NCBI GenBank assembly: GCA_965195345.1
Contig: OZ239628.1
Location: 32,001-96,000 of the forward strand
DNA: 64,000 nucleotides
Direction of reading: 5' to 3'
DNA from: an uncultured Thiomicrospira sp.
GTDB taxonomy: Bacteria > Pseudomonadota > Gammaproteobacteria > CAKMZV01
Shown here: positions 556 to 57,651 of the stretch, piece after piece
How positions within the stretch are numbered: the stretch's first letter is position 1
Layout: every line of letters starts with the position of its first letter
Translations under genes and position numbers: made by a program
The notes under the pieces: model-generated
What the model saw: only the letters and a program-made list of their open reading frames with translations
Told to the model about the DNA's origin: nothing
The model's database searches: none

Positions 556-598
556 ACAAAAATGGATAGTTCAATACGTTACGCTCTACCATTCTTTG

Positions 599-1939: not shown

Positions 1940-4071
1940 ACAACCGTCTCAGCAAGATAGGATAAGCATTTATCTACCTCATGAGATGACCCAAGAATAA
2001 CAGGTACTCTTTGATGAATTTCTTTAGGTTGAATATCGAGGATTGAGATTTTACCATTGCTTGATTGCCCGCCTGCTTGCTCAATTAAAAAGCTCATCGG
2101 ATTCGCTTCGTACAATAATCGAAGTTTCCCTTCTTGATCAGGTTTCCTCGTATCCCAAGGATAAAGAAAGATACCACCTCGCACCAAAATTCGATGCACA
2201 TCGGCGACCATTGAAGCGACCCAGCGCATGTTATATCGTTTTGCCAGCGCTCCCTCCTCTCCTCTTAAACAATCATCAATATACGCTCGTATGCCCTTTT
2301 GCCAAAATCGGTGATTTGACATATTGATAGCAAACTCTTGTGTTGATTTTTTCGCTCTAACAGATTCATTAATTAACAAAAATTCGCCGCTGCATTGATC
2401 AAAATTATAAAAGTGTACACCCTTGCCTACACTGAGAACTAATAATACTGAAGAGCCGTACAAAACATATCCTGCAGCCACTTGCCGTCTTCCTGGTTGT
2501 AAAAAACCTGATTCTAAAGATGTGTCTTTAGTGTGAGGGAGAATGGAGAAAATGGTTCCCACTGAGATAGCTACATTGATATTTGAAGAACCATCCAATG
2601 GGTCAAAAGCAACCAAGTAACTCCCTTGTGCATCTCCCTGTGCCACCTCCTCCTCTTCTTCAGAAGCAACGCCTGCCACTTTATTACTCCCCAGCAAAGA
2701 TTGTTTTAATATCACATTTGAGATAACGTCCAATTTCTGCTGAACTTCTCCTTGCACATTTTCTTCAGAGCCCGCCTCGCCAATGACATCTGCAAGTGCC
2801 CCCTGTTTGACACGCCATGCAATATCTTTGCAAGCGCTGGTGACAACGCGAATAACTTCCACTAAGTCTTCTTGGCAATTCTGTTCTTGTAAATGGTCAA
2901 ATAAATTCAAATGCATCGGGTTTTTCTCTTTAGGTTGGTTTTCAAATGCTTTTTTTGGATTGGAGAACAACGCCCAGCTATTGTGCGGTGCTTGCTGAAT
3001 TTTAGCATACGCACGCAACTCTCGTCCAACCAGCCAATATCTCCAACCGATGAATAACGGACATTTTTCAGCGTTACGCATGAATGCCAAAAGCGTTTTA
3101 TTTCCTGCAACATCCTTTACTTGGATATTTAATTCCTGTGCATAGGGCTTAATAAATTTTTTAACTGCATTGATGGTCGCTTTCTCTCTACTTGTCATCG
3201 TATAGGGGATTACTTTCTCCAGCAACTCATCTATCCTTCCATGCTTTCCTCTAAACCAAGCTTCATAACAGGTTTTCGCATACTCAGGATGCTTTACTAA
3301 TCTAGTCAGTGTGGCGATGTCGAAATCGTTCATAGCAATATTGATTAGCATTTCATCTCTTATGAAATGCTGGCGTGCTTTATTAGACTGCTGTGCACAT
3401 TGCTCCCTCCAGATAGCAAGCTCTTGTAGAATCCTTTGATTTTTTTTCGGCACACTTTGAGCCGCTTTAAGTAGCCACCATAACGTTTTCTCTTCTCTAT
3501 TCTTTAATATTCTTTGAGCGTTAACCAAGCTTTCTTCAATCACAGCAGATTGCATTGAAGCATCCATCCTTTGAACACAAAAATCATAAAGATCTGCTAA
3601 GTTTGTAGCGTCTTTCTCAGCATAATCTAATTGCTTTTGACTTAGAGGTCGACACCGCCAATCGGTTTTTTGTTGGCTTTTATCCAATCGAATACCTAAA
3701 CAACTTTCCACAGCTTTAGAAAAACCCACTTGCAAACCAAAGCCGAGCATCGTCATAGCCACTTGCACATCAAAAACATTATTTGGTGTCGAACCTGTCC
3801 ATAGTTTCCATATTTCTAAATCCTGATCTGGAGAATAGAAAACCAATAAAGGATGTTCAGCCAATGCACGAAGGAAGTCATTGAGCGTTTTTTTATCGCA
3901 TGCTAAAACATCAATCATTTCAACAAAGTTAGGACTTGCAATTTGAATCAAACACAATTGAGGGTAGTAAGTGGTGCGCCTGTAAAATTCCATATCGATA
4001 GACACCCACTTGCATTCCATGCAAGTTTTCAACAAAGAAGGAAAGGTTGAGTCTGTTGTTATAGGTTTCAT
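1936..4071 (-). CDS. rnd-fbp: in-frame fusion: ribonuclease D (N-terminal) + class 1 fructose-1,6-bisphosphatase (from Met at 2916)
   Basis: RNase D: IDMEF..TYYPQLCLIQ, QD, DKSQQKTDW..RPLS..QLDYA..D, HRDC WRE, GWR. FBPase: ENVQGEVQQKLDV, FDPLDGSSN, RWVASMVADVHR, GKLRLLYEANP. Start placed at ATG 4071 (ORF track extends to 4107). Confidence 0.85.
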   Translation of the reverse strand: MKPITTDSTFPSLLKTCMECKWVSIDMEFYRRTTYYPQLCLIQIASPNFVEMIDVLACDKKTLNDFLRALAEHPLLVFYSPDQDLEIWKLWTGSTPNNVFDVQVAMTMLGFGLQVGFSKAVESCLGIRLDKSQQKTDWRCRPLSQKQLDYAEKDATNLADLYDFCVQRMDASMQSAVIEESLVNAQRILKNREEKTLWWLLKAAQSVPKKNQRILQELAIWREQCAQQSNKARQHFIRDEMLINIAMNDFDIATLTRLVKHPEYAKTCYEAWFRGKHGRIDELLEKVIPYTMTSREKATINAVKKFIKPYAQELNIQVKDVAGNKTLLAFMRNAEKCPLFIGWRYWLVGRELRAYAKIQQAPHNSWALFSNPKKAFENQPKEKNPMHLNLFDHLQEQNCQEDLVEVIRVVTSACKDIAWRVKQGALADVIGEAGSEENVQGEVQQKLDVISNVILKQSLLGSNKVAGVASEEEEEVAQGDAQGSYLVAFDPLDGSSNINVAISVGTIFSILPHTKDTSLESGFLQPGRRQVAAGYVLYGSSVLLVLSVGKGVHFYNFDQCSGEFLLINESVRAKKSTQEFAINMSNHRFWQKGIRAYIDDCLRGEEGALAKRYNMRWVASMVADVHRILVRGGIFLYPWDTRKPDQEGKLRLLYEANPMSFLIEQAGGQSSNGKISILDIQPKEIHQRVPVILGSSHEVDKCLSYLAETVV

Positions 4072-4220
4072 CTGTTTATCATACCTGAAATTCCCCTGAA
4101 AGGACATTATTCAATTGCACAATACCCTTGAATCAAAAAATGACACGTGCGAATGCACGCAACTATTCCTTTTCCATTGAGAATAAATCAGAAACAGATT
4201 CCCTAGCATCAAATATCGCA

Positions 4221-4234
4221 TATAATGCGCCATC
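4221..4234 (+). promoter_or_regulatory. -10 box with GC-rich discriminator upstream of rpoZ
   Basis: TATAAT at 4221-4226 followed by GCGCCATC. Confidence 0.5.
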
Positions 4235-4267
4235 CGCTTAATTCATAACCCCAACAAAGACGTAACA

Positions 4268-4546
4268 ATGGCAAGAGTAACAGTAGACGACTGCATGAGC
4301 AAGATTGAAAATCCTTTTGATCTAACCCTAATAACCGCTAAACGCGCTTATCAAATCGCAAGAGGAAGTCGCTGCAAGGTTTCTTTAGATCAAGATAAGC
4401 CTGTTGTTCTAGCTTTACGCGAAATTTCCGAAGGATTAAGTGATGAAGCGTCGATCCAAGAAGAAGAGCAAAGAATTCTTGAAAAACTTCGAGAAATGCC
4501 TGACTTTAGAGCCGAAAGAAACAAAGATTTTGGCACACATTCATAA
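4268..4546 (+). CDS. rpoZ: RNA polymerase omega subunit
   Basis: MARVTVDDC..FDLTLITAKRAYQI..DKPVVLALREI; upstream of spoT. Confidence 0.95.
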   Translation: MARVTVDDCMSKIENPFDLTLITAKRAYQIARGSRCKVSLDQDKPVVLALREISEGLSDEASIQEEEQRILEKLREMPDFRAERNKDFGTHS

Positions 4547-4739
4547 CGATTATTTTGGAACAGTTTTTTCCAATCAACAAAAAATAATCTAATATCTCCT
4601 CCTAAGTAAGAGGATTCTTTAAATATCTTCCTATTACGAAAAGAAAATAGGGTAATTTCGTTATAACTTATAAAGCTGGATTGAACCAGCATCTTTGAAA
4701 AACTTCTATATTGTCAAATCAAGGTTATAATCGTTTTCT

Positions 4740-6911
4740 ATGGCTCAATTTTTACAAAATTTAAGTCGCATACCAAAGGTATTTCAATTCAAAGATGAAG
4801 GATTAGCCCTTTTTCAGCCTCTCAAACCATACATAAACTATTTACCAAGAAGTCAACGCAAACGGATTGTACAAGCGTTTCTATTTGCAAGAGATGCCCA
4901 TCATGGACAAATTCGCATGGATGGCAGCCCATATATAACGCATCCTGTTGGAGTTACCGGTATTCTTGCCGACCTAAAACTTGATCCTGACACGCTTATC
5001 GCTGCACTATTGCATGATGTCATTGAAGATACTAATGTTAGTAAAAAAGAAATATCGACCCGTTTTGGCGAACAAGTTGGTGAATTGGTGGATGGTGTAA
5101 GTAAATTAGAGCGCATAGAAAGTCAAACCAGTTCAGAAGCTCAAAGCGCCACCTTACAGAAAATGATCCTTGCCACAGCATCCGATTTACGCATTTTATT
5201 GGTGAAGTTAGCAGATAGAACGCATAATGCTCAAAGTTTAGACGTTTTTAATCCTAAGAAACGTCAACGGATTGGTCAAGAAACACTTGAAATATATGCA
5301 CCATTGGCTGCTCGAATTGGCATAAATTCATGGAGACTTCTTCTTGAAGACTGTGGATTTAAAGCAATATATCCATGGCGCCATAAATCCATCAATAAGG
5401 CAATCAAGATTGCCAAAGGAGAGCGAAGAAAAAAGATTGACGAAGTTTCTGAATTTGTAAAGAAAAGATTAAAAGGCGTTGGTATCAATTCTGATGTTTT
5501 TGGTCGTGAAAAAAATGCATATTCAGTATTTAGAAAAATGAATGAGAAAAAACTCAAATTCGATCAAATACTTGACCTTTTTGCTTACAGAGTTATTGTG
5601 AAAACAGTTGACGATTGTTACAGGGCATTGGGAATTATTCACGGTTTGTACAATCCAGTACCCGGAAAAATAAAAGATTACATCGCATTACCAAAACCCA
5701 ATGGATATCAATCTCTACACACTATATTATTTGGTCCATCTGGTGCGCATATAGAAGTGCAGATACGTACAGAAACTATGCATAAAAACGCGGAGTATGG
5801 CATTGCTGCTCACTGGAGCTACAAGCAATCTGAAGATCAACAACCTAATATAAAAAACCAAAAGCTATCCTTTGAGTGGATTAGTAATCTAATAGAAGTT
5901 AGTAATAGTGCAGGCACATCAAGTGAATTCATTGAGGCTGTTAAAACAGACTTATTCCCCCATGAAGTCTATGTGTTTACCCCTGAGGGAAGCATACTAT
6001 CCTTACCTCGAGGAGCAACAGCCGTAGACTTTGCATACGCGATCCATACAGATGTTGGAAATGAATGTCTTGGCTGCGAAATTGATCGAGAGCGTTCCGA
6101 TATTAGTACTCCTTTACAAAATGGGCAAACTGTTTATATTATTCGATCGAAATTTGCTCGCCCTAATCCAGATTGGTTAGATTTTGTCATTACAGCCAAA
6201 GCACGTTCTCAGATACGAAATTTTCTTAAAAATCAAACCAACGAAGACACAATCCCTATCGGCAAACAACTTTTAGAACAATCCCTAGAGACTTGGAATA
6301 TTAAACTGGACGAAGTTACTCCTAATGTCCTCAACGAATTACTGGCGGATTTGAAAATTGACAGCGATATTGAACTTTACCAACAGATTGGCTTAGGAAA
6401 TCGCCCGACTCAACTGGTTGCAAAGCAGATACAAAACCTAATAGATCCAACGATAAAATCCCCTTCTTCTACGGCTGCACCTATCATAATCCAAGGAACT
6501 GAAGGTATGGCTGTTGCTTTTGGTCATTGTTGCAACCCCATTCATGGAGACCGCATTATAGGTCACTTAAGTACAGGAAAAGGTATAGTGGTGCATCGGT
6601 TAAACTGCCATAATGTTCGAAAGTTCCATAAAACTCCTGAAAAATGTGTTCCAGTTGATTGGCACGAAATTCATAATCAAGCCCTTCCCGTAAGAGTAAA
6701 CATAGAGTCTGAAAACCAAGCAGGTGTTTTAGCAAATATTACGCATATCTTAGATAAAATGAATGTTAACATTGACGAAGCGCACGTCATCAAAGGCGCT
6801 GAAGTCGCAAAAATAGAGATGCTAATACTTGTATCTGCTCGCAAAGAGCTCGCTTCCGTACTGCGTGAATTGAGGAAAATACCAACCGTCATAAAGGCAA
6901 ACAGAGCATGA
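4740..6911 (+). CDS. spoT: bifunctional (p)ppGpp synthetase/hydrolase SpoT
   Basis: PYITHP, LLHDVIED (HD), KLADRTHN, KDYIALPKPNGYQSLHT, EVQIRT, TGS and ACT domains. Confidence 0.95.
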   Translation: MAQFLQNLSRIPKVFQFKDEGLALFQPLKPYINYLPRSQRKRIVQAFLFARDAHHGQIRMDGSPYITHPVGVTGILADLKLDPDTLIAALLHDVIEDTNVSKKEISTRFGEQVGELVDGVSKLERIESQTSSEAQSATLQKMILATASDLRILLVKLADRTHNAQSLDVFNPKKRQRIGQETLEIYAPLAARIGINSWRLLLEDCGFKAIYPWRHKSINKAIKIAKGERRKKIDEVSEFVKKRLKGVGINSDVFGREKNAYSVFRKMNEKKLKFDQILDLFAYRVIVKTVDDCYRALGIIHGLYNPVPGKIKDYIALPKPNGYQSLHTILFGPSGAHIEVQIRTETMHKNAEYGIAAHWSYKQSEDQQPNIKNQKLSFEWISNLIEVSNSAGTSSEFIEAVKTDLFPHEVYVFTPEGSILSLPRGATAVDFAYAIHTDVGNECLGCEIDRERSDISTPLQNGQTVYIIRSKFARPNPDWLDFVITAKARSQIRNFLKNQTNEDTIPIGKQLLEQSLETWNIKLDEVTPNVLNELLADLKIDSDIELYQQIGLGNRPTQLVAKQIQNLIDPTIKSPSSTAAPIIIQGTEGMAVAFGHCCNPIHGDRIIGHLSTGKGIVVHRLNCHNVRKFHKTPEKCVPVDWHEIHNQALPVRVNIESENQAGVLANITHILDKMNVNIDEAHVIKGAEVAKIEMLILVSARKELASVLRELRKIPTVIKANRA

Positions 6912-7696
6912 AAGTACTGCTCTACTTACCGTTTTTTTTGCTACTGGCCTCTTGTGCTTCGTCCACTCAAAAAGGAGCAGTTGGAGTTGAACGCCAACAA
7001 CTACTCATCATGTCTTCTACCGAAGTGCACAAAAGTGCAGATACAGCCTACACCGAAATTTTGGCTGAAGCTAAGAAAAACAAAACGCTGAATACTGATA
7101 AAAAAATGCTTGAGCGTATCCAAAGTATTGCTGATCGCCTTATCCCTCAGACCGCAGTATTTCGCAAAGATGCCCCTCAATGGCACTGGATGGTAAATCT
7201 CATTAAATCTGATCAACTGAACGCGTGGTGTATGCCTGGAGGAAAAATTGCTTTCTACACAGGCATCATAGAGAAATTACAATTGACCGATGCTGAAATA
7301 GCCGCCATAATGGGTCATGAAATGGCTCATGCGTTGCGTGAGCATGGACGTGAACGAATTTCTGAGCAAATGTTAACAACATCAGGACTGAATGTATTAA
7401 GTTCTCTTTTTGGAGTCAGTGCTCCAGCTGCCAAATTAGTAACTGATGTAACCTTAACATTGCCGAACTCTCGTACTCACGAAACCGAAGCAGATCGCAT
7501 AGGCATAGAGCTCATTGCCCGAGCCAACTTTAATCCCTACGCTGCGGTTAAAGTATGGGAAAAAATGGAAAAAGTATCTTCAGGATCTCAGCCTGAAATA
7601 TTAAGCACCCACCCATCGAATAAAACTCGAATTCAAGACCTCAAAAAATATGCAAAGCTCGTTGAGCCATTATATGAAAAGAATAAATCAAATTAA
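6908..7696 (+). CDS. M48 family Zn metallopeptidase lipoprotein (LoiP/Oma1-like)
   Basis: Lipobox LASC; NAWCMPGGKI, HEMAH, ETEAD, STHP. Confidence 0.9.
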   Translation: MKVLLYLPFFLLLASCASSTQKGAVGVERQQLLIMSSTEVHKSADTAYTEILAEAKKNKTLNTDKKMLERIQSIADRLIPQTAVFRKDAPQWHWMVNLIKSDQLNAWCMPGGKIAFYTGIIEKLQLTDAEIAAIMGHEMAHALREHGRERISEQMLTTSGLNVLSSLFGVSAPAAKLVTDVTLTLPNSRTHETEADRIGIELIARANFNPYAAVKVWEKMEKVSSGSQPEILSTHPSNKTRIQDLKKYAKLVEPLYEKNKSN

Positions 7697-8711
7697 AAAA
7701 ATAGGGGTTTTCCTTTTTCTTCTTACATTATTTGGATGCTCTACTCCAAAAATTCAAACCCGTGTTGAACTTCCGGCAAAAATCCCCGAAGTTAGCAAAG
7801 TCAAGAAAATCGGCATTTATGATTTAAAAAACGATATGATTCTCATAGGTGCAAAATTAGAAGAATTATTTCGATCAGTTCAAGCAAATAATACTCCTTT
7901 TTTTGAAGTATTCAATAGAGAAGACCTCGAAAGAATTATCCAAGAACAAAACAATGCCAGTAGCATACTATTCAATGAAGCACAAGTTATTAATATTGGG
8001 AAACTTGCCAAAGTAGAGGCCATTCTTACTGGAGCAGTACAAACTGCAATACTCAAACAAACGCCCTATACTAAAACTAAGTTTCGTCTTCAATGTCTTA
8101 TATGGAAAAATCTTGCATGCCAACAATGGGTTCCAATCAGTTATCCCGTACACTGTACAAAGTCTCAAAGTAGCATTGCATTTCAAATTCGCATTAGTGA
8201 TGTTGAAAATGGACAGGCAATACTGGCAAAAACGTACACCGGTGCAAACAGTAATGACACTTGCTCAACACCTCCTTCCCTCGCTCAGATGCAACAGCAA
8301 TCCATTCGACAAGCGTTGGCAAATGTGCGCCAAGATATTGCACCGTACTACATATCTGTTACCATCGAACTCATGGAAAAAGATAATAGCAACTTATCCG
8401 ATCAAAAAGAAGCCCAAGAATACTTTGATTTGGGGCTTGAATTTATAAACGCCGACACTCCGAGCATACAGAAAGGGTGTGGTTACTTCCATCAAGCAGC
8501 AAGCCGCTACGGTGAGTCTGCTGCAATATACTACAATCTCGGAGTTTGTACAGAAATAGAAGGAGACATTAACAAAGCACAAAGTTATTATCTTCAAGCA
8601 GAACAAAAACTCAAAAAACCAAATAACCTCGTATCGAAAGCTTTACAGAATATTAAAAAAAGGAAAGCAGACGAAGCAGCCCTCGAAAAACAAAAGAGCA
8701 TTAGGGAATAA
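7674..8711 (+). CDS. lipoprotein with CsgG/HfaB-like domain and C-terminal TPR
   Basis: Lipobox LFGC; FNREDLERIIQEQ..IGKLAKVEAILTG resembles CsgG-like fold; YYNLGVCTE..A..YY TPR-like. Start moved to ATG 7674. Confidence 0.65.
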   Translation: MKRINQIKKIGVFLFLLTLFGCSTPKIQTRVELPAKIPEVSKVKKIGIYDLKNDMILIGAKLEELFRSVQANNTPFFEVFNREDLERIIQEQNNASSILFNEAQVINIGKLAKVEAILTGAVQTAILKQTPYTKTKFRLQCLIWKNLACQQWVPISYPVHCTKSQSSIAFQIRISDVENGQAILAKTYTGANSNDTCSTPPSLAQMQQQSIRQALANVRQDIAPYYISVTIELMEKDNSNLSDQKEAQEYFDLGLEFINADTPSIQKGCGYFHQAASRYGESAAIYYNLGVCTEIEGDINKAQSYYLQAEQKLKKPNNLVSKALQNIKKRKADEAALEKQKSIRE

Positions 8712-8714
8712 CTG

Positions 8715-9572
8715 ATGCTTCGACTTACATTCTTTCTGTCAATGATGCTGCTGATTACAGCATGCAGTTCAACTAAGATAAAAAATGATTGCTCTTGTGC
8801 CACATATCAACCAAAGTCCCCACGCCCCAGCTGGATCGATAACGAGAACGTTAGTTCAAAGGCACTACTGAGCAGCGGAGGCAGTCAGTGCACAGGAATA
8901 CAAACTTTAGATTTTAAAGAATCTGACCAGAATGCGCGCCTTAATCTTGGATTATTGATTCGAGCGAATGTTCGTGGAGAGATCAATATCATAAAAAGAC
9001 AAGATTCTTCCGTTGGCGGACTTAGCCAAGCCTCTGTACAAAGCGCCGTTTCCTCAGAATCCTTACTTGAAAATGCTTTTGTCTATGATCGTTGGGTCGA
9101 TCCTATAAATTGCTCAATTCACAGTGCCATCAGGTTGAATAAAGAGGACTACCAGCGCACTAAAAATCGTTTGCAAGAGATAGAAGCACGCAAACCCAAA
9201 AATCAATTGATGTTACTGCGATTGAAAAATAATGTACCCTCTGAATTGTTGCTTGCAACACTGAGTAATCTTGGTGCGCAAAAACTAACTTTAGATCAAA
9301 CCATTTCCAGCCAAGTCTATACTATTGAGTGGGAAAGCCAACAACCGCAAGAGCACGTGGAAGGCAGCATACACGCCATTATTATCAAATCAATTTTGTT
9401 GGTGAAAAATCGTAAAGATCAAGTCGTACTTAGTCTGGTAAAAAACGGCAAATCATTTCACCGAGGTAACGTGAATGATCCATCATTTTTATACGAAAAG
9501 GCGCGTCGCCATGCACTTTTACAAATGCATGAACCATTGAAGAAATTCCTAACCACCCCTATAACACAATAG
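8715..9572 (+). CDS. lipoprotein, LPP20-like
   Basis: Lipobox ITAC; RPSWI then A..NAR..L, D.WVDP pattern typical of LPP20-like domains. Confidence 0.55.
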   Translation: MLRLTFFLSMMLLITACSSTKIKNDCSCATYQPKSPRPSWIDNENVSSKALLSSGGSQCTGIQTLDFKESDQNARLNLGLLIRANVRGEINIIKRQDSSVGGLSQASVQSAVSSESLLENAFVYDRWVDPINCSIHSAIRLNKEDYQRTKNRLQEIEARKPKNQLMLLRLKNNVPSELLLATLSNLGAQKLTLDQTISSQVYTIEWESQQPQEHVEGSIHAIIIKSILLVKNRKDQVVLSLVKNGKSFHRGNVNDPSFLYEKARRHALLQMHEPLKKFLTTPITQ

Positions 9573-11127: not shown

Positions 11128-12558
11128 TTAAGTGCCTACCAAATATAAATGGGTAATAATACTTGCGCCATATCCTAAAGCAATAACTGGCGACCATTTT
11201 AAGTGACTACCAAAGGTATACATTCCCTTCGCTTGCCCCATTAGAGCAACACCAGCTGCTGACCCAATCGACAACATGCTGCCACCAACCCCTGCTGTTA
11301 ATGTCACTAAGAGCCATTGGTTTAAGGACATCTCTGGGTTCATTGATAAGACAGCAAACATCACTGGAATATTATCAACAATAGCAGATAAAAAGCCGAC
11401 TAAAATATTTGCCGTCGTGGGTCCCCAATCAAGATACATGGTTTCAGAAATCAATGTTAAGTATCCTATGAATCCAAGCCCACCTACAGACAAAATCACT
11501 CCGAAGAAAAACAACAATGTATCCCACTCAATAGTAGCCACTACTTTGAGAATATCAAAGCTCCCTTTAGTTTGATTGAATGACAAACCAGATATTTCTG
11601 CCTGAGTCATTTTATTTTCCTCACCCTGAAGATATCGCTCCTCGGTAATACGCAAATAGTACCCATACATACCTAAATAGCCAAAGCCTAACATCATGCC
11701 CAGCATGGGAGGTAAGTGCAAAATATTATGCGCAGAGACAGCTGTAGCAATAGTGCATAAGAAGAGCAGGACTACTACCCAACCGCCTCTCAACACTTCT
11801 ACCTTTTCATTATCAGCGGCAGGCTGCTCATCAGGGACTGCAAAATGCATAATCGCTGCTGGCACAAGAAAATTAACAACTGAGGGAACAAAAATTGCAA
11901 AAAACTCATGAAATTGAACGATTCCTTTCTGCCAAACCATCAATGTCGTTATATCACCGAAAGGACTGAATGCACCACCTGCATTTGCTGCGACAACTAC
12001 GTTAACACAGCCTATAGAGATGAATTTGCGATTTCCTTTGCCTACCGCCAAGAGCACCGCACACATTACCAAGGATGTCGTTAAATTGTCGGCTATGGGA
12101 GAGATAAAGAAAGCCAAAATGCCCGTGATCCAAAACAATTTTCGAAATCCAAGTTGTCGCGCAATTAACCATGAACGCAACCAATCAAAAATGCGCCGCT
12201 CCATCATAACGTTGATGTATGTCATTGCCACCAATAAAAAGAACGCAAGCTCAGTAAATTCAAGTAGATTATGTCGTACGGCATCATGAGGAAGGGCAGG
12301 CAAACCCTCCAACCGATATATCCACGCAATCATAGCCCAGATTATTATTGCTGAAATAATGACTGGTTTTGATTTGCGCATATGTGTTACTTCTTCAAGC
12401 ATCACCAATGCATACGCTAAAACGAACGTTGCTATAGCCAAATAACCCACTAAATGCGTGGTTAAATCCAAGTTTTGTCCGACCACACCTCCTGCAGCCA
12501 AAGCCACACCTGTAAAAGCAAAAATGAAAATCAAGGATAAGCTGATATATGCTCGCAT
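11128..12558 (-). CDS. nhaD: Na+/H+ antiporter NhaD
   Basis: RKSKP, SPIADNLTT, ANAGGAFSPFGDITTLMVWQ, SAIVDNIP, SIGSAAGV. Confidence 0.92.
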   Translation of the reverse strand: MRAYISLSLIFIFAFTGVALAAGGVVGQNLDLTTHLVGYLAIATFVLAYALVMLEEVTHMRKSKPVIISAIIIWAMIAWIYRLEGLPALPHDAVRHNLLEFTELAFFLLVAMTYINVMMERRIFDWLRSWLIARQLGFRKLFWITGILAFFISPIADNLTTSLVMCAVLLAVGKGNRKFISIGCVNVVVAANAGGAFSPFGDITTLMVWQKGIVQFHEFFAIFVPSVVNFLVPAAIMHFAVPDEQPAADNEKVEVLRGGWVVVLLFLCTIATAVSAHNILHLPPMLGMMLGFGYLGMYGYYLRITEERYLQGEENKMTQAEISGLSFNQTKGSFDILKVVATIEWDTLLFFFGVILSVGGLGFIGYLTLISETMYLDWGPTTANILVGFLSAIVDNIPVMFAVLSMNPEMSLNQWLLVTLTAGVGGSMLSIGSAAGVALMGQAKGMYTFGSHLKWSPVIALGYGASIITHLYLVGT

Positions 12559-52740: not shown

Positions 52741-54057
52741 CTAACTTTCAGTTGTAAATGAACTCATGAGAACTGCATATTCTGAGATTACATCATCTCT
52801 ATTTCCTCGAAAATAATGCCGTATGAGTGATAAAGCGTTAGAAATAAAATCGTCTATAGGGCTAAGCTCATTATCACTCATTAAAATGCATTTCAGGAGG
52901 GCGTGCAAGCGATGACGATCAAAGTTAACAATCGCTAATTTTTCAATTAATTCACTAAATGAAATATCTTTATGCTTCAGTCTGTTAAACAAAGGAGGAT
53001 CACAGACTTTAACCATTGCAAGAAAAACCACAATCTCTGTCAAGTAATCCTTATTAGAAAGTCCTAAACCCACAATCACAATATTTGTATATACCTTCTC
53101 CAATTGTCTTAATGATAGATCATAGTGTTTAGATAAAATTACTATATTTTCATAAAACACAGAATGTTCTTGCTTTGGTTCAGTAAAGCCATGTAATTCA
53201 AATAACCTTTGAGAGTATTTTTTAATATCATAAACATGAGATTCTTTCTTGTTTTGGGGCAATGATGACTCTATAGTTATAAACTTTTGTAAATAAGTAT
53301 GAGCATCAATATCTTGTCCATAAACTTTTTTTACAGCCACCTCCAACTGTTTTTTATTCATAACTAAGACAAATACAACGTTTTTAACTGAAAATAAATG
53401 TTTGATTTTTTCAATGACTTGAACGGCAAAGGGTGGTCTGCATCGATCGAGCTCATCAATGATGATTACTAAAGGAGTGTCTTTATTTTCGTTTAACTTA
53501 GATGGGAGTTTTGAGAGATCTTCTCTAAAGGATTGAACGAAATTTACTTCCTCTTCATGCGATTTCACTCGATCTTTAACATACTGATCAACGAGCTCTG
53601 CCGCACCATTTGACCATAAGTTTTTGAAACTTTCACTTTCTGTATCTCCAAACGTATTTAAAGTCACCGCCTTGATGCCCATTTTCGTCAACACTGGCAT
53701 TACCGTACGAGCAACGTTTGTTGCTTTTTTTATAAATTCATCAGTGTTTACATTAGAATTTTTACTAACATAATTGTTAATAGCACTTACTATTGGAATA
53801 AAGGCATCATCTGCATAATCAATTGAAAAAGCGTCAATGTAAATGTTTGAAATGTTGTTTTTTGTCAGCATTCCTTGCCACATCTTTACAAAGGTTGTCT
53901 TTCCCTCTCCCCAATCAGCATCAATTGAAATGACTAATTCGTGCTCAACATCGCGAACTATATTTCGAAGAAACTCTCCATACGCCTTCCTATTAAGAAT
54001 ATCTTTCTCAAACCCCTCTTGCTCATCAATATCCAGTGGTGGAATAACCAGTTTCAT
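52741..54057 (-). CDS. KAP-family P-loop NTPase (no TM segments)
   Basis: D.LNR, WGEGKTT Walker A, IIIDELDRC Walker B, IKHLF, YLQKFI; AT-rich; SD GGAG. Confidence 0.9.
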   Translation of the reverse strand: MKLVIPPLDIDEQEGFEKDILNRKAYGEFLRNIVRDVEHELVISIDADWGEGKTTFVKMWQGMLTKNNISNIYIDAFSIDYADDAFIPIVSAINNYVSKNSNVNTDEFIKKATNVARTVMPVLTKMGIKAVTLNTFGDTESESFKNLWSNGAAELVDQYVKDRVKSHEEEVNFVQSFREDLSKLPSKLNENKDTPLVIIIDELDRCRPPFAVQVIEKIKHLFSVKNVVFVLVMNKKQLEVAVKKVYGQDIDAHTYLQKFITIESSLPQNKKESHVYDIKKYSQRLFELHGFTEPKQEHSVFYENIVILSKHYDLSLRQLEKVYTNIVIVGLGLSNKDYLTEIVVFLAMVKVCDPPLFNRLKHKDISFSELIEKLAIVNFDRHRLHALLKCILMSDNELSPIDDFISNALSLIRHYFRGNRDDVISEYAVLMSSFTTES

Positions 54058-54280: not shown

Positions 54281-54319
54281 TCACTCCACAGTAACTGAAT
54301 AAACTGGAACGGCAATTAT
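54281..54319 (-). repeat. left junction: recoded copy of glmS 3' end plus element end arm
   Basis: Minus strand TCA GTT ACT GTG GAG TGA vs glmS TCG GTT ACA GTT GAG TAA (14/18, all differences silent); adjoining arm is an inverted repeat of 55760-55787. Confidence 0.8.
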
Positions 54320-54480
54320 AATTAGACCGTTCTTCTTCCCCCTATTTTAAGACTTTTTTAACTCTACCCTTCTGTAAATCTACAGCTTAAGTAGTGGGTT
54401 TACTTACCAAATCTTTGACAGAGTATCCCTCATCCTTATCGTTCTTATCGTTGTAGACCAACTTGTCCCGAAAAGAAGTT
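54281..54480 (-). pseudogene. decayed 3' fragment of an ORF ending YSVTVE (possibly the element's recombinase)
   Basis: Frame-broken peptides DKLVYNDKNDKDEGYSVKD, VDLQKGRVKK, NRGKKNGLIIIAVPVYSVTVE*; recombinase identity is inference. Confidence 0.4.
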
Positions 54481-54518
54481 CTTAGATATCCTCACTTTCT
54501 AAATCTCTGATACTTGCT

Positions 54519-54733
54519 TGCAGTAAAATGTGGTTGAGGACATTTCTGGGTCAGACTCTGTAATGGGAGAAGTTAGGCAGGGTGAAAGAAAAGGTTCTCA
54601 GTTTCTTGTATGCAGCCGTTACCCGAGATGTCGCTTCACAAAGGATATAAAACAAGAAAGCGGTAGCACTTGGCGTTTCACAATCATTGTTATTTTGATT
54701 ATAATCGGAATCATTTGGTGGGTTTTATACTGA
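54519..54733 (+). pseudogene. topoisomerase-type C4 Zn ribbon + TM helix, N-terminus broken
   Basis: GSQFLVCSRYPRCRFT motif; first Cys pair recoverable as TGC AGT AAA (A) TGT GGT = CSKCG at 54519-54534, followed by TGA. Confidence 0.55.
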
Positions 54734-54734
54734 T

Positions 54735-54881
54735 ATGGAGTTCTTACTGTTATGTTTCGTGGTTGGTGTAATCATCCTCTATCCTAAACCCATAATGAAA
54801 GGTATTTGGGCGACGATAGTGGGGGGAGCAGTAATCTTTGGTGTATCCATTCTTCTGATAATTATAGTCGGTTCTGGTTAA
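54735..54881 (+). CDS. 48-aa two-helix membrane protein (not in ORF track)
   Basis: MEFLLLCFVVGVIILYPKPIMKGIWATIVGGAVIFGVSILLIIIVGSG*; starts 1 nt after the previous stop. Confidence 0.55.
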   Translation: MEFLLLCFVVGVIILYPKPIMKGIWATIVGGAVIFGVSILLIIIVGSG

Positions 54882-54977
54882 TGAGAGTTTGAACGGTGAG
54901 GTGGTGCAAGTGGTGTGATATCGGATAAGCAGAAGTATTAGATAATTAGTATCCAATTGAAATAACGAGGTTTTTAC

Positions 54978-55592
54978 ATGGCGATTGTTTATATTTTAAC
55001 TAATGAAAGTATGTCGGACATTATCAAGATTGGTATCACCGACAACTTGTATAGAAGACTTAAAGACTTAGACAACACATCAACTCCGCTTCCTTTTGAG
55101 TGTTTCTATGCCGTTGAGGTTAATGATGCGAAAGCAATTGAAAATCTTCTCCATGAGGCATTTGACGATAAAAGAATTCGTCAAAATAGGGAGTTCTTCG
55201 ACTGCGCACCAGAACAAGCAAAATCCGCACTAAAAATTGCAGAGAAAATGGGAGGCAGAGATGTAACTCCTAAAGAAATGGTTTTTGAAAATCAGCAAGA
55301 CAAACAAGCATTAGATAATGCAAAGAAACGCAAAGGGAGAGTGGACTACTTTGGAATTCTTGGAATCAATGTAGGGGAGATTCTTACTTTCTCAAAAGAC
55401 AGTTCTATCACTTGTACGGTTAGAGGCAATAAACAAGTTCTTTTCAGAGATGAACTGACAACACTGTCTGGTTCTGCATTAATCATCGTTACTGAGATGG
55501 GTTACAACTGGGCACAAGCCAGAGGTGCGGCATATTGGTGTTATAAGGGCACCACTCTTTTGGATTTATCTCAACAAGCACAAGATGGGTAG
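54978..55592 (+). CDS. GIY-YIG (T5orf172-type) nuclease with RAMA-like C-terminal domain
   Basis: IVYILTN..IKIG.T..L.RR..PLPF..E..LH..NREFF; C-terminal G..L.F..V.F....LS..A..G..YW.Y.G..L..L; SD GAGG. Confidence 0.8.
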   Translation: MAIVYILTNESMSDIIKIGITDNLYRRLKDLDNTSTPLPFECFYAVEVNDAKAIENLLHEAFDDKRIRQNREFFDCAPEQAKSALKIAEKMGGRDVTPKEMVFENQQDKQALDNAKKRKGRVDYFGILGINVGEILTFSKDSSITCTVRGNKQVLFRDELTTLSGSALIIVTEMGYNWAQARGAAYWCYKGTTLLDLSQQAQDG

Positions 55593-55725
55593 AAGCAGAA
55601 GAATATTATTATGCGATACCTAATCTAACAAAGTAATTAATCAAGTCGCGATTGCGTTGCTGCACTTCAGTCCAGTTCCTTGTTGATTAACCTGTGAGTG
55701 GGGTTAAACGAGGAAAAAGTTACTC

Positions 55726-55760
55726 AAAAACAGAGAAACTATTGCCAGTTCTCTGAAAAA
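55726..55760. terminator. bidirectional terminator-like hairpin after glmS (inside the element)
   Basis: CAGAGAAACT/AGTTCTCTG stem with a T5 tract on the minus strand. Confidence 0.6.
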
Positions 55761-55776
55761 TAATCACCGTTCCGAC

Positions 55777-57651
55777 TTACTCAACTGTAACCGATTTTGC
55801 AAGATTACGCGGTTGATCGATGTCCGTTCCTCTAATCAAGGCGACATGATAGGCTAACAATTGCAACGGTATGGCAAAAATAATCGGTGCGGTAATACGC
55901 CCAACACCAGACGTTATTGGAATAACGTTGCTCCATCCGTCTGTCGAAATGTTCGACTTCTCATCTTCAAACACAATGAGATTGCCCCCTCGAGCATGCA
56001 CTTCCTGCAAATTTGACCGCAACTTTGCTAATAACTCATCATGCGGCGCAACCACTATCACCGGTGTGTTTTCATCAACCAACGCAAGTGGTCCGTGCTT
56101 GAGCTCTCCTGCAGGATATGCTTCAGCGTGGATATAGGCTACTTCTTTAATTTTTAATGCGCCTTCCAACGCAACAGGGTACATGCTCCCTCTGCCTAAA
56201 ATAAGCGCGTTGTCAAACTCAGCTATGATAGTCGCTACTTTAGCAATTTCTTTTTCACAATTAAGCACACGTTTTATCAAGCTTGGGAGGTGCCTCAGCC
56301 CTTGTGCTATACGCATTTCTTGATCTTCTTGGATGCGTTTTTGTACTTTCCCTATAACAACAAGTAACAAAGCCAGCGCAACCAATTGTGTTGTGAATGC
56401 CTTGGTTGAGGCAACACCAACCTCAACCCCTGCATGCGTCAAAAAAACCATGTCTGCACTACGTGTGATGGTGGAATCTGGCGTGTTACAAATCGTTAAG
56501 ACGGGAATGTTTTTAATTTTACGTTGCTCATCTATCAGTTCAAGGGCAGCTCTTGTATCTGCCGTTTCTCCAGATTGTGAAACGACTACGTACAAAGTGT
56601 TATTTAAAATAACAGGGTTGCGATAACGAAATTCACTGGCAATTTCAACATTAACAGGAATATCCAAAATATCTTCAAACCAGTATTTGGAAACCATCCC
56701 AGCATAATAACTTGTGCCGCAAGCAAGTACCGTCACTTGTGATATGCTTTTGAGCGTTTCAGGCGCTTGTGCTCCAAAAGCATCCGTAAGAATCGAATCA
56801 CCCACTAAAGCGTTTTGCAAAGTTTGAGTTACTGCATCGGGTTGCTCATATATTTCCTTGAGCATATAGTGCCTGTAATCACCCTTTCCTTCGATATTAC
56901 TAAATACTCTAATCGTTGATATAGTACGTTTTTCATTGATCTCATTTTTGGAGTCAAAAACGTTTTCACCATTCAAATCAAAAATTTGTAAATGTTGTTT
57001 TTCGATGTAAACAATGTCGCCATCTTCGAGGGGTATGTAGCTCTGAGTTACTGGCGTTAAAGCATGCGGATCCGAGGCAATAAAATATTCCCCAATCCCA
57101 ACACCCACCACCAACGGGCTACCGCAACGCACAGCCACTAAGCTATCAGGATGATGCACATCGATAATGCCTAAGGCATACGCGCCCTCAAACATCTTCA
57201 ACGATTCTTGAACACAAGATATGAGACTATTCCCGTTCGCTTCTAAATTGCGATTTAAAACATGTGCGATTACTTCGGTGTCCGTCTCACTGGTAAATAC
57301 TTGCCCCTCCTTCTTCAGCGACTCTCTTAATTCATGGAAATTTTCAAGTATGCCGTTATGTACTACTGCTAATCGACTTCCACTGATGTGAGGGTGCGCA
57401 TTATCTTCAGAAGGCGCGCCATGCGTTGCCCAACGAGTATGGGCTATTCCTGTAGTGGAGGAAGGTTTTTCCTGTTCAATTTTATTAACCAGTGCTTGTA
57501 CTTTTCCTAATGCACGTATCCTTTCCAAAGTGCCATCAGCGATTATAGCAACCCCAGAAGAATCGTAACCTCTGTACTCAAGACGACGTAATCCTTCTAA
57601 TAAAATAGGAACAACATTGCGTTCTGCAACCGCACCAATAATTCCGCACAT
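55777..57651 (-). CDS. glmS: glutamine--fructose-6-phosphate transaminase
   Basis: MCGI, RGYDS, HTRWATHG, SQSGET, ELKHGP, PRNLAKSVTVE. Confidence 0.98.
   Translation of the reverse strand: MCGIIGAVAERNVVPILLEGLRRLEYRGYDSSGVAIIADGTLERIRALGKVQALVNKIEQEKPSSTTGIAHTRWATHGAPSEDNAHPHISGSRLAVVHNGILENFHELRESLKKEGQVFTSETDTEVIAHVLNRNLEANGNSLISCVQESLKMFEGAYALGIIDVHHPDSLVAVRCGSPLVVGVGIGEYFIASDPHALTPVTQSYIPLEDGDIVYIEKQHLQIFDLNGENVFDSKNEINEKRTISTIRVFSNIEGKGDYRHYMLKEIYEQPDAVTQTLQNALVGDSILTDAFGAQAPETLKSISQVTVLACGTSYYAGMVSKYWFEDILDIPVNVEIASEFRYRNPVILNNTLYVVVSQSGETADTRAALELIDEQRKIKNIPVLTICNTPDSTITRSADMVFLTHAGVEVGVASTKAFTTQLVALALLLVVIGKVQKRIQEDQEMRIAQGLRHLPSLIKRVLNCEKEIAKVATIIAEFDNALILGRGSMYPVALEGALKIKEVAYIHAEAYPAGELKHGPLALVDENTPVIVVAPHDELLAKLRSNLQEVHARGGNLIVFEDEKSNISTDGWSNVIPITSGVGRITAPIIFAIPLQLLAYHVALIRGTDIDQPRNLAKSVTVE

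What the first reader, a model, noticed from the sequence alone, without database searches (positions are those of the whole stretch)
54281..55800. Integrative element inserted within the last codons of glmS, with a reconstructable serine-integrase-type attP
Seen: glmS ends (minus strand) TCG GTT ACA GTT GAG TAA at 55794-55777. A second copy, TCA GTT ACT GTG GAG TGA, lies at 54298-54281, same orientation, differing only at silent positions. Joining the two inner ends at the shared GTTAC gives ATAAT-TG-CCGTTCC-AGT-TTATTCA-GTT-A|C-AGT-TGAGTAA-GTC-GGAACGG-TG-ATTAT. This 56-bp palindrome is centred exactly on the AC of the Thr codon; 19/28 arm positions match and all 9 mismatches are transitions. 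Known: large serine integrases use an imperfectly palindromic attP around a 2-bp crossover, and the glmS 3' end is the TnsD-bound part of attTn7, with Tn7 inserting downstream of the stop. Inference: a non-Tn7 element cuts inside the coding sequence, supplies a recoded tail so GlmS is unchanged, and displaces the former tail 1.5 kb away.
Basis: partly seen in the sequence, partly recalled or inferred. Interest (0 to 1): 0.88.

Follow-up and report, generated by a model that had tools for sequence, protein, structure and literature searches.

The report
Fossil serine-integrase element inside glmS
A 1.5-kb insert in the last codons of the essential gene glmS is the decayed remnant of a mobile element that cuts inside the gene, replaces its tail so the enzyme is unchanged, and belongs to a widespread family that the literature searches run here did not turn up.

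Summary
glmS (55777-57651, minus) ends SVTVE-TAA. A silently recoded SVTVE-TGA copy lies 1,496 bp downstream. These are the only two such 18-mers in the 1.92-Mb genome. The inner flanks form a 19/28 inverted repeat, and all 9 mismatches are transitions (P about 1e-5).

The insert is a fossil of a large-serine-recombinase (LSR) element.
- Its right end (54282-54470) is a stop-containing remnant of an LSR C-terminus (69% identity, E=5e-20).
- Its left end (55612-55780) is a remnant of the same protein's C-terminal extension.
- The middle holds a T5orf172 gene and two small ORFs.

Relatives with LSR genes sit at the same glmS position in marine alphaproteobacterial MAGs. Pieces occur in 41 of 192 genomes of one order, often in tandem arrays. 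The 145 aligned nt after the glmS stop are 82% identical to an alphaproteobacterium whose GlmS is only 41% identical.

In long-form members the LSR ORF runs across attP, so integration splits it. This genome has no cognate LSR, so the copy is immobile. No published description was found.

The parts
55777..57651 (-). glmS (glutamine-fructose-6-phosphate aminotransferase), 624 aa, ends ...NLAKSVTVE-TAA
   Evidence: ORF. Pfam SIS 5.6e-52 and GATase_6 5.3e-19.
55777..55794 (-). Proximal tail (attL core), TCGGTTACAGTTGAGTAA. The codons after the AC are inferred to be supplied by the element.
55787..55788 (-). Inferred crossover dinucleotide AC in attL (Thr codon)
   Evidence: It is the symmetry centre. 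It is also the overlap of the attL/attR identity blocks of the window and G403.
55760..55787 (-). P' arm (element left end). TAAGTCGGAACGGTGATTAT is conserved in G403, G989 and G069.
55612..55780 (-). Pseudogene remnant of the LSR C-terminal extension (second Recombinase-like HTH), with in-frame stops and one frameshift
   Evidence: tblastn with P0001: residues 578-620 give 70.8% identity at 55822-55679, and residues 621-643 give 60.9% at 55680-55612. The same region was found with stops by the genome search.
54978..55592 (+). Cargo gene, 204-aa T5orf172/MUG113 (GIY-YIG-like) protein
   Evidence: Pfam T5orf172 3.3e-19. No homolog was found in the fetched stretches of the other family members examined (G403, G404, G809, G860).
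54735..54881 (+). Cargo ORF, 48 aa, hydrophobic, no family
54530..54733 (+). Cargo ORF, 67 aa, weak Zn_ribbon_Top1 match (29.2 bits, below the cut-off of 32) plus a hydrophobic tail
54282..54470 (-). Pseudogene remnant of the LSR C-terminus (P0001 residues 525-588), with 2 in-frame stops and 1 gap. It runs through the P arm and the crossover.
   Evidence: tblastn gives 68.75% identity over 64 aa, E=5.5e-20. The DNA matches the G404 LSR 3' end at 144/177 positions.
54292..54319 (-). P arm (element right end). TAATTATAAT..CCGTTCC...TTATTCAGT is conserved in G403 and G404.
54291..54292 (-). Inferred crossover dinucleotide AC in attR
54281..54298 (-). Distal, displaced tail (attR core), TCAGTTACTGTGGAGTGA. 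The part after AC is inferred to be the original glmS end, followed by the native T-run.

Best explanation
Window 54292-55787 (1,496 bp) is the decayed remnant of an integrative element that was mobilised by a large serine recombinase (LSR).

How the element works (inferred): it recombines its attP with an attB made of the last glmS codons (...N-L-A-K-S-V-T | V-E-stop). The 2-bp crossover is at the AC of the Thr codon. Because the P' arm carries its own NGT-GAR-stop, GlmS keeps its SVTVE end. The original tail is pushed to the far end of the element.

In intact relatives the LSR gene lies at the right end and reads towards attR. In long-form members its ORF continues across attP into a C-terminal extension that holds a second Recombinase-like HTH. 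Integration therefore detaches that extension and leaves it directly behind glmS.

In this genome the LSR body (about 520 codons) has been lost and replaced by cargo: a T5orf172 gene and two small ORFs. Both remaining LSR fragments carry stops, the arms have drifted to 19/28, and no cognate LSR remains anywhere in the genome. The copy is a fixed, immobile scar.

Shown: the duplication, the arms, the LSR fragments, and homologous elements with LSR genes at the same site in other genomes. Inferred: the AC crossover, recognition of the coding half-site, and any function of the split.
For: Uniqueness and symmetry of the repeats
- The two tails are the only SVTVE-stop 18-mers in the genome.
- The inverted repeat is 19/28 with 9/9 transitions, P about 1e-5.

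LSR fragments in the window
- The ends match LSR P0001 at 68.75% over 64 aa (E=5.5e-20) and at 70.8% and 60.9% over the extension, with stops.

The same ends in other genomes
- A degenerate half-site pattern scanned over genome contigs gave 3 hits. Two of them (a SAR116 MAG and an alphaproteobacterial MAG) have the motif directly followed by a VTVE-stop remnant. The third is a chance hit with no glmS, LSR or extension nearby.
- In G403, glmS ends ...GAGTAA followed by GTCGGAACTGTGATTATTTTTC. The element is 1.5 kb and its arms match 20/28.
- In G404 a 601-aa ORF (Resolvase 3.4e-15, Recombinase 8.5e-11) abuts and reads through attR.

Protein family
- 49 protein clusters have E<=1e-10. Of 15 fetched, 6 are long forms (676-715 aa) that run through P arm, core and P' arm into a GxGYR(K/R)I HTH, and 12 of 15 show the core motif 21-33 residues after a conserved RGKKK anchor.
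- 4 of 5 long forms have two Recombinase stretches.

Distribution and architecture
- In the order of G404, 41 of 192 genomes have a match.
- In the 11 fetched loci, all 7 glmS genes are followed within 60 nt by the extension, and 5 of 7 LSR cores are followed within about 110 nt by a VTVE-stop tail.
- Elements with both ends and an uninterrupted LSR core ORF: G860 (8.4 kb) and G809 (9.6 kb). Joining the ends of G809 in silico gives one open frame of 586+120 codons.

Horizontal mobility
- The window's 145 aligned nt after the stop are 82% identical (119/145) to G989, whose GlmS is 40.6% identical.
- Gammaproteobacterial remnants directly behind glmS occur in G013 and G069.

This genome
- PF07508 gives 0 hits.
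Against: - No empty site or circle junction was seen for this species. All four runs hold the occupied form, and the closest genomes held share only about 70% nucleotide identity in the glmS 3' end and no synteny downstream.
- One X1 contig (1,262 nt, depth 5.1 against 21.6) matches 55778-55816 with one mismatch and then diverges right after the stop. A close relative therefore keeps the supposedly element-derived ACAGTTGAG codons with a different downstream sequence. Its 30-nt continuation is not in this genome or in any fetched locus.
- The reconstructed attB shows no clear two-fold symmetry about AC by my reading.
- LSR att sites are normally not reused after integration, yet tandem arrays are common here. 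That calls for relaxed right-half-site recognition, which is untested.
- In one subfamily (G831, G860) the LSR stops about 40 nt before the P arm, so an ORF that spans attP is not universal.
- No recombination activity has been measured.
Confidence: 0.9

Rival explanations
1. It is the remnant of a tyrosine-recombinase genomic island of the kind that integrates into the 3' end of a gene and leaves roughly 18-bp imperfect direct repeats (SGI1 at trmE and phage 21 at icd, both recalled).
For: An 18-nt imperfect direct repeat at a gene's 3' end, with the gene restored, is the classic signature of such islands (recalled). The repeat is confirmed.
Against: No Phage_integrase match lies in or near the element: the 4 hits in the genome are at 475 kb, 861 kb, 1,021 kb and 1,131 kb. 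The element's ends are fragments of a serine recombinase. Every relative at this site that carries a recombinase carries an LSR. The exact identity between the repeats is only 5 bp.
Confidence: 0.02
2. It is a decayed Tn7-like transposon at attTn7, with GTTAC as its 5-bp target duplication.
For: glmS is the Tn7 target, and Tn7 makes 5-bp duplications (recalled). GTTAC is the only exactly shared block.
Against: The insertion lies inside the coding sequence, not downstream of the stop. The inverted repeat is centred on A|C, not on the middle of GTTAC. No TniQ match exists in the genome. A TnsA search also found nothing, but its control rang nowhere, so it is uninformative. The ends encode LSR fragments.
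Confidence: 0.02
3. The second tail and the inverted repeat are chance similarities in AT-rich intergenic DNA.
For: the repeat finder lists 333 inverted pairs in 8 kb, and this one ranks 11th. A 15/18 match to the proximal tail exists elsewhere in the genome.
Against: Only two SVTVE-stop 18-mers exist in the genome, 1.5 kb apart on the same strand. The Monte Carlo P is about 1e-5. The same architecture recurs in many genomes.
Confidence: 0.005
4. The element is of LSR type, but it did not integrate in this lineage. It arrived already integrated, carried in by homologous recombination of a foreign glmS 3' segment, or the T5orf172 nuclease-like gene spread it by homing.
For: The X1 variant contig keeps the proximal tail codons with a different downstream sequence. 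T5orf172 homologs lie within 10 kb downstream of glmS in 3 of 8 other genomes that have one.
Against: Those three loci have no tail duplication and no LSR or extension remnants, so the T5orf172 association does not run through this element. The window's glmS 3' coding sequence shows no block of foreign identity: only the sequence after the stop is close to G989. Nothing tested here excludes transfer by homologous recombination.
Confidence: 0.08

Closest known systems
SCCmec / SCC elements with Ccr large serine recombinases at the 3' end of rlmH (orfX) (recalled, not checked in a paper here)
   Same: Both are LSR-driven elements that integrate inside the last codons of a conserved housekeeping gene and keep the ORF intact. 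Both leave short imperfect direct repeats, accumulate in tandem arrays and leave recombinase-less remnants.
   Different: The target is glmS rather than rlmH. The hosts are marine Alpha- and Gammaproteobacteria rather than staphylococci. There is a single LSR (plus a small resolvase in one subfamily) rather than CcrAB or CcrC. The LSR ORF can span attP. No homolog at E<=1e-20 was found in PLSDB plasmids or INPHARED phages.
Tn7 and Tn7-like transposons with TnsD/TniQ at attTn7 (recalled; PMC10293859 and PMC11014353 seen as a search listing, the latter also in one passage)
   Same: Both exploit the conserved 3' coding end of glmS as a safe, near-universal landing site. Recognition lies in the coding sequence.
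   Different: The chemistry differs: conservative serine recombination against DDE transposition. Here the cut is inside the coding sequence and the tail is replaced, whereas Tn7 inserts downstream of the stop. There is no 5-bp target duplication in register with the ends, and no Tns genes.
SSV-type 'suicidal' tyrosine integrases of archaea (PMC8371274, passages read)
   Same: attP lies inside the integrase's own gene, so integration partitions the gene. The module is compact.
   Different: Those are tyrosine recombinases, and the review states that they occur only in archaea. Here the enzyme is a bacterial serine recombinase, and only a C-terminal HTH extension is detached, so the catalytic body stays whole.
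Myxophage Mx8 intP/intX (recalled, no paper seen)
   Same: It is a bacterial case in which attP lies within the 3' end of int, and integration changes the integrase C-terminus.
   Different: Mx8 uses a tyrosine integrase and a tRNA target.
Phage 21 / e14 integration in icd (recalled, no paper seen)
   Same: The element carries a substitute 3' end of an essential protein-coding gene, which differs mostly at silent sites.
   Different: It uses a tyrosine integrase and a much longer substitute segment.
Phage LSRs such as phiC31, Bxb1 and A118 (recalled)
   Same: Domain set of Resolvase, Recombinase, zinc ribbon and coiled coil. The att sites are imperfectly palindromic around a non-palindromic central dinucleotide.
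   Different: This family has an extra C-terminal Recombinase-like HTH in its long forms. Its conserved arm block lies 15-28 bp from the centre. Already-occupied sites are reused, and there is no phage context.

Membership tests
LSR-mobilised integrative element | Encodes a large serine recombinase (Resolvase catalytic domain plus Recombinase domain) | tested here: not met
   The window copy has no LSR gene, and PF07508 gives 0 hits in the whole genome. Only C-terminal fragments remain. The feature is met in relatives at the same site: G404, G831, and G809, G860, G853 and G814.
LSR-mobilised integrative element | The element's sequence is derived from such an element (homology of its ends to an LSR gene and its att arms) | tested here: met
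   tblastn E=5.5e-20 for the right end and 70.8% / 60.9% identity for the left end. DNA identity is 119/145 to the G989 left end and 144/177 to the G404 right end.
LSR-mobilised integrative element | attP is an imperfect inverted repeat of about 50 bp around a central non-palindromic dinucleotide | tested here: met
   19/28 in the window and 20/28 in G403, centred on A|C. Cognate P/P' arm pairs co-vary in three subfamilies.
LSR-mobilised integrative element | 2-bp crossover, with no target duplication beyond it | tested here: inconclusive
   The identity blocks GTTAC (window) and ACCGTGGAGTA (G403) overlap only at AC. Mutation after integration cannot be excluded, and the cleavage was not measured.
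LSR-mobilised integrative element | Recombination of attP with attB by the encoded enzyme | not testable with these tools
   This needs an in vivo or in vitro assay. No empty site or circle junction was seen in reads.
Tn7-like transposon | TnsA/TnsB/TnsC plus TnsD/TniQ genes or remnants | tested here: not met
   TniQ gives 0 hits. TnsA-like_N gives 0 hits, but its control rang nowhere. The ORFs of the insert are T5orf172 and small ORFs.
Tn7-like transposon | Insertion downstream of the glmS stop with a 5-bp duplication in register with the ends | tested here: not met
   The insertion is five codons before the stop. The symmetry axis lies at A|C, not at the centre of GTTAC.
Tyrosine-recombinase genomic island | A Phage_integrase-family gene at one end | tested here: not met
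   The four PF00589 hits in the genome are all hundreds of kb away. None was found in relatives' elements.
SSV-type suicidal integrase | A tyrosine recombinase whose gene contains attP | tested here: not met
   attP inside the ORF is seen, but the enzyme is a serine recombinase. It works like this family in one respect and is not a member.

The most novel reading that the evidence does not exclude
The window preserves a scar of an undescribed, widespread family of compact bacterial LSR elements. Their attB is the near-universal last seven codons of glmS, and in most subfamilies attP lies inside the recombinase's own ORF.

Integration then detaches a C-terminal, Recombinase-like HTH module and parks it directly behind glmS. 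In one search most extension-only matches carry no stop inside the match, including some that lie in stretches where no LSR gene was found.

The split would act as a built-in directionality or immunity switch. The full-length enzyme would be made only from the free circle or across element-element junctions, and the detached module could act in trans as a site blocker, an excision factor or a repressor. In G404, inverted copies of the outer arm motif also bracket the LSR promoter.

Because recognition rests on the coding half-site, elements of different subfamilies stack into arrays.
Probability: 0.45. Interest if true: 0.85.

Novelty: new variant of a known kind. Interest (0 to 1): 0.78.

Why it matters
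Large serine recombinases are among the most used tools for one-step, unidirectional DNA integration, but each needs its own landing pad. This family's natural attB is the conserved 3' end of glmS, the site that made Tn7 a near-universal bacterial integration tool. It could therefore give a recombinase-based counterpart that works in many bacteria without pre-installed sites and without harming the target gene.

Biologically it would add four things:
- a second, mechanistically unrelated class of elements that has converged on glmS;
- a bacterial, serine-recombinase case of an integrase gene that is split by its own integration, which a 2021 review describes as found only in archaea;
- an explanation for the small open reading frames and variable islets behind glmS in marine SAR116-type genomes;
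- for annotation, the point that a second SVTVE-stop copy downstream of glmS is a reliable marker of such elements.

Tried and rejected
- Empty site in relatives. The 40 relatives searched are too distant: same-genus genomes show about 70% nucleotide identity in the glmS 3' end and their GlmS ends AVTVG. There is no synteny downstream of glmS in G001, G002, G004 and G008, and no LSR or extension remnant in the 8-13 kb fetched around their glmS 3' ends.
- Sequencing runs. Four runs (one study, two samples) hold the stretch, all as Logan contigs. No contig joins across the insert, and the holes in cover prove nothing.
- Metagenome scan with a 26-nt glmS stretch. It gave one unrelated contig, 68-72% identical elsewhere.
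- Copies of the arms or tails elsewhere in the own genome. None within 3 mismatches, apart from one chance 15/18 hit.
- T5orf172 as the mobility gene. Homologs occur in 9 of 400 genomes of the class, counting the window's own genome. 3 of the 8 other genomes have one within 10 kb of glmS, but without tail duplication or LSR remnants. The closest homolog (77%, G301) is not at glmS. It was rejected as the driver and kept as cargo.
- Viral contig scans. Three pattern scans gave 0 hits, 1 chance hit in a tape-measure gene, and 0 hits. A protein scan with P0010 gave none.
- tblastn of P0010 against plasmids and phages found no match at E<=1e-20.
- A class-wide sample of Alphaproteobacteria gave only 2 of 401 genomes. 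The order-level search was the productive one.
- The Spirochaetaceae hit is a chance match.
- The loose end of the X1 variant contig is not in the genome or in any locus, so it stays unexplained.
Published LSR catalogues (recalled, not seen) may list glmS-targeting enzymes in supplements I could not read.
- Literature. Searches were read as search listings with the starts of the abstracts; passages were read only in PMC8371274 and PMC11014353. They gave no description of a natural LSR element at glmS.

Full report
**What is in the window**

glmS occupies 55777-57651 on the minus strand (624 aa; SIS and amidotransferase domains). It ends TCG GTT ACA GTT GAG TAA. A second copy, TCA GTT ACT GTG GAG TGA, lies at 54298-54281 in the same orientation. 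The copies share 14 of 18 bases, and every difference is silent or stop-to-stop.

A scan of the whole 1.92-Mb genome on both strands finds only these two 18-mers that encode SVTVE-stop. Similarity to glmS stops at the Ser codon. Random 28-mer pairs from this genome reach that score with frequency about 1.5e-5.

Between the copies lie three ORFs:
- a 204-aa T5orf172/MUG113 gene (54978-55592, plus strand);
- a 48-aa hydrophobic ORF;
- a 67-aa ORF with a weak topoisomerase-type zinc ribbon.

None of them is a recombinase. In the whole genome the Recombinase domain of large serine recombinases has no hit. The Resolvase and Phage_integrase hits are all far away.

**Dead ends on the direct test**

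The nearest genomes held are too distant to show an empty site. Four public runs from one study hold only the occupied form. A metagenome scan returned an unrelated organism.

One contig in run X1 (1,262 nt, depth 5.1 against 21.6 for the main contig) matches 55778-55816 with one mismatch and diverges immediately after the stop. Its continuation is not in this genome. This remains unexplained and is the main observation that does not fit neatly.

**The breakthrough**

I made a degenerate pattern that matches both arms and scanned one genome per species. It gave three hits, against about 0.3 expected by my arithmetic.

- One hit is a chance match.
- The other two are a SAR116 MAG (G403) and an alphaproteobacterial MAG (G404). 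In both, the motif TAATTATAATCACCGTTCCAACTTATTCA is directly followed by GTAAC-GT-GAGTAG, that is V-T-V-E-stop. This is the same right-end architecture as window 54281-54325.

In G403, glmS ends GTTACCGTGGAGTAA followed by GTCGGAACTGTGATTATTTTTC, which is the window's left end. The insert there is also 1.5 kb, and its arms match 20/28.

In G404 the DNA abutting the right end is a 601-aa ORF with Resolvase (3.4e-15) and Recombinase (8.5e-11) domains. It lies on the glmS strand and reads through the P arm and the crossover.

**The window copy is a fossil of such an element**

A protein search with the G404 enzyme found 49 clusters at E<=1e-10, all from metagenomes or MAGs. tblastn of these proteins on the window gave two results:
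- P0001 residues 525-588 match 54470-54282 (minus) at 68.75% identity, E=5.5e-20, with two in-frame stops and a gap.
- Residues 578-643 match 55822-55612 at 61-71%, with stops and a frameshift.

So both ends of the recombinase gene survive as pseudogene fragments. About 520 codons in the middle have been replaced by the present cargo.

At the DNA level, the 145 aligned nt after the glmS stop are 82% identical to G989 (an alphaproteobacterium). The right end is 81% identical (144/177) to the 3' end of the G404 LSR gene. The GlmS proteins of these hosts are only 41-42% identical to the window's. Sequence that conserved behind a gene that diverged must have moved horizontally.

**The family**

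In the order that contains G403 and G404, 41 of 192 genomes have a match. In a sample of the window's own class, remnants lie directly behind glmS in G013 and G069 as well as here. In a class-wide alphaproteobacterial sample only 2 of 401 genomes matched.

In the 11 loci fetched:
- all 7 glmS genes present are followed within 60 nt by the extension-like ORF;
- 5 of 7 LSR cores are followed within about 110 nt by a VTVE-stop tail.

G860 (8.4 kb) and G809 (9.6 kb) have both ends and an LSR core ORF without stops.

At least three subfamilies exist. Each has its own P and P' arms, which are inverted repeats of one another, so the arms co-vary. A more distant LSR (25-35% identity) sits at the same glmS end in G622, with perfect 32-nt inverted repeats.

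Arrays are common. The displaced tail of one element is often followed by the left end of another, sometimes of a different subfamily; for example, the G403 attR is followed by a subfamily-C P' arm. This implies that the enzymes depend mainly on the coding half-site plus the TVE-stop codons. That is inference.

**Where the exchange happens**

attL and attR share GTTAC in the window and ACCGTGGAGTA in G403. The only common part is AC, which is also the symmetry axis. AC is not palindromic, as polarity in serine integrase sites requires (recalled).

**An ORF that spans attP**

Of 15 family proteins fetched, 6 are long forms of 676-715 aa. They continue past the P arm, through a core that encodes TVE-stop in the glmS frame, through the P' arm, and into an HTH with the motif GxGYR(K/R)I. 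Four of five long forms have two Recombinase stretches in Pfam. The small ORFs behind glmS in G403 and G404 match the first half of that Pfam model above its cut-off.

Joining the ends of the G809 element in silico gives one open frame of 586+120 codons. Integration therefore cuts the gene and leaves the extension just behind glmS.

In subfamily B (G831, G860) the LSR stops about 40 nt before the P arm, after a run of A residues, and a small resolvase gene lies directly upstream. The feature is therefore not universal.

A 2021 review states that recombinases which disrupt their own gene are known only from archaea (tyrosine 'suicidal' integrases; passages read). Mx8 is a recalled bacterial tyrosine case in which integration changes the integrase C-terminus.

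**Comparison with the known, and novelty**

The mechanism is that of a large serine recombinase element. The closest working analogue is SCC/SCCmec at the end of rlmH (recalled). The closest ecological analogue is Tn7 at attTn7.

The window copy fails the membership test 'encodes an LSR' because it has lost the gene, but it passes 'derived from one'. Tn7-like, tyrosine-island and chance explanations were each tested and rejected.

Six literature searches found no description of a natural LSR element that targets glmS (read as listings with abstract starts). Supplements, where LSR catalogues may list target genes, were closed. No homolog at E<=1e-20 exists in the plasmid or phage collections, and none was found in IMG/VR.

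**Verdict**

The local feature is an immobile scar. It does, however, expose a widespread family, apparently undescribed, with an unusual gene-across-attP design and an attractive, conserved target. I rate it a new variant of a known kind, with interest 0.78.

Noticed in passing
window 52741-54057 (minus): A 438-aa KAP-family P-loop NTPase (9.4e-42) lies in the lowest-GC stretch of the region (0.29-0.36), directly beyond the displaced tail. It may be a separate, older island at the glmS hotspot.
   Followed up: no
L045 (G208), L046 (G364), L047 (G065): T5orf172 homologs (39-41% identity) lie 1.7-8.8 kb downstream of glmS in 3 of the 8 other genomes that have one. They have no tail duplication and no LSR remnants, so this gene type recurs in other islands at the glmS hotspot.
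   Followed up: partly
window 55778-55816, run X1 record 3: A 1,262-nt contig at about a quarter of the main depth shares the last glmS codons (one mismatch in 39 nt) and diverges right after the stop. Its continuation is absent from this genome and from all fetched loci.
   Followed up: partly
L063 (G404) 50-120; L108 (G809) about 12230-12310: The LSR promoter region (TTGACT-17-TATAAT in G404) is bracketed by inverted copies of the same motif as the outer att arms (ATCACCGTT / AACGGTGAT). G809 has an analogous pair resembling its own arm motif. This suggests autoregulation by the arm-binding domain.
   Followed up: partly
L080 (G831) 1-513; L110 (G860) upstream of 2544: Subfamily B elements carry a small resolvase gene (Resolvase 6.5e-25 plus an HTH) that ends just at the LSR start. 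Their LSR stops after a run of nine A residues about 40 nt before the P arm, while the frame that crosses the junction is open from just after that run. Frameshifting or slippage is possible, and so is a homopolymer assembly error.
   Followed up: partly
L069 (G622) 564-9000: A 6.6-kb element sits at the glmS end of a complete 3.9-Mb genome. It has a 17-nt exact repeat of ...CTGGCAAAGTCCGTTAC, perfect 32-nt inverted repeats, and a distantly related LSR pseudogene (25-35% identity, with stops). It is a second LSR clade on the same target.
   Followed up: partly
L059 (G403) 8869-9230; L063 (G404) 1871-2240: The displaced tail is followed by the degenerate left end and extension ORF of another element. 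In G403 that element belongs to a different subfamily, so elements stack at glmS.
   Followed up: yes
own genome C1:1,020,647-1,021,671: A 201-aa small resolvase (3.0e-38) lies next to a weak Phage_integrase match. Two further Resolvase matches lie near 1.73-1.74 Mb: a fragment with a stop at 1,731,224-1,731,394 and a weak sub-cutoff match at 1,741,409-1,741,624. These belong to other mobile elements elsewhere in the genome.
   Followed up: no
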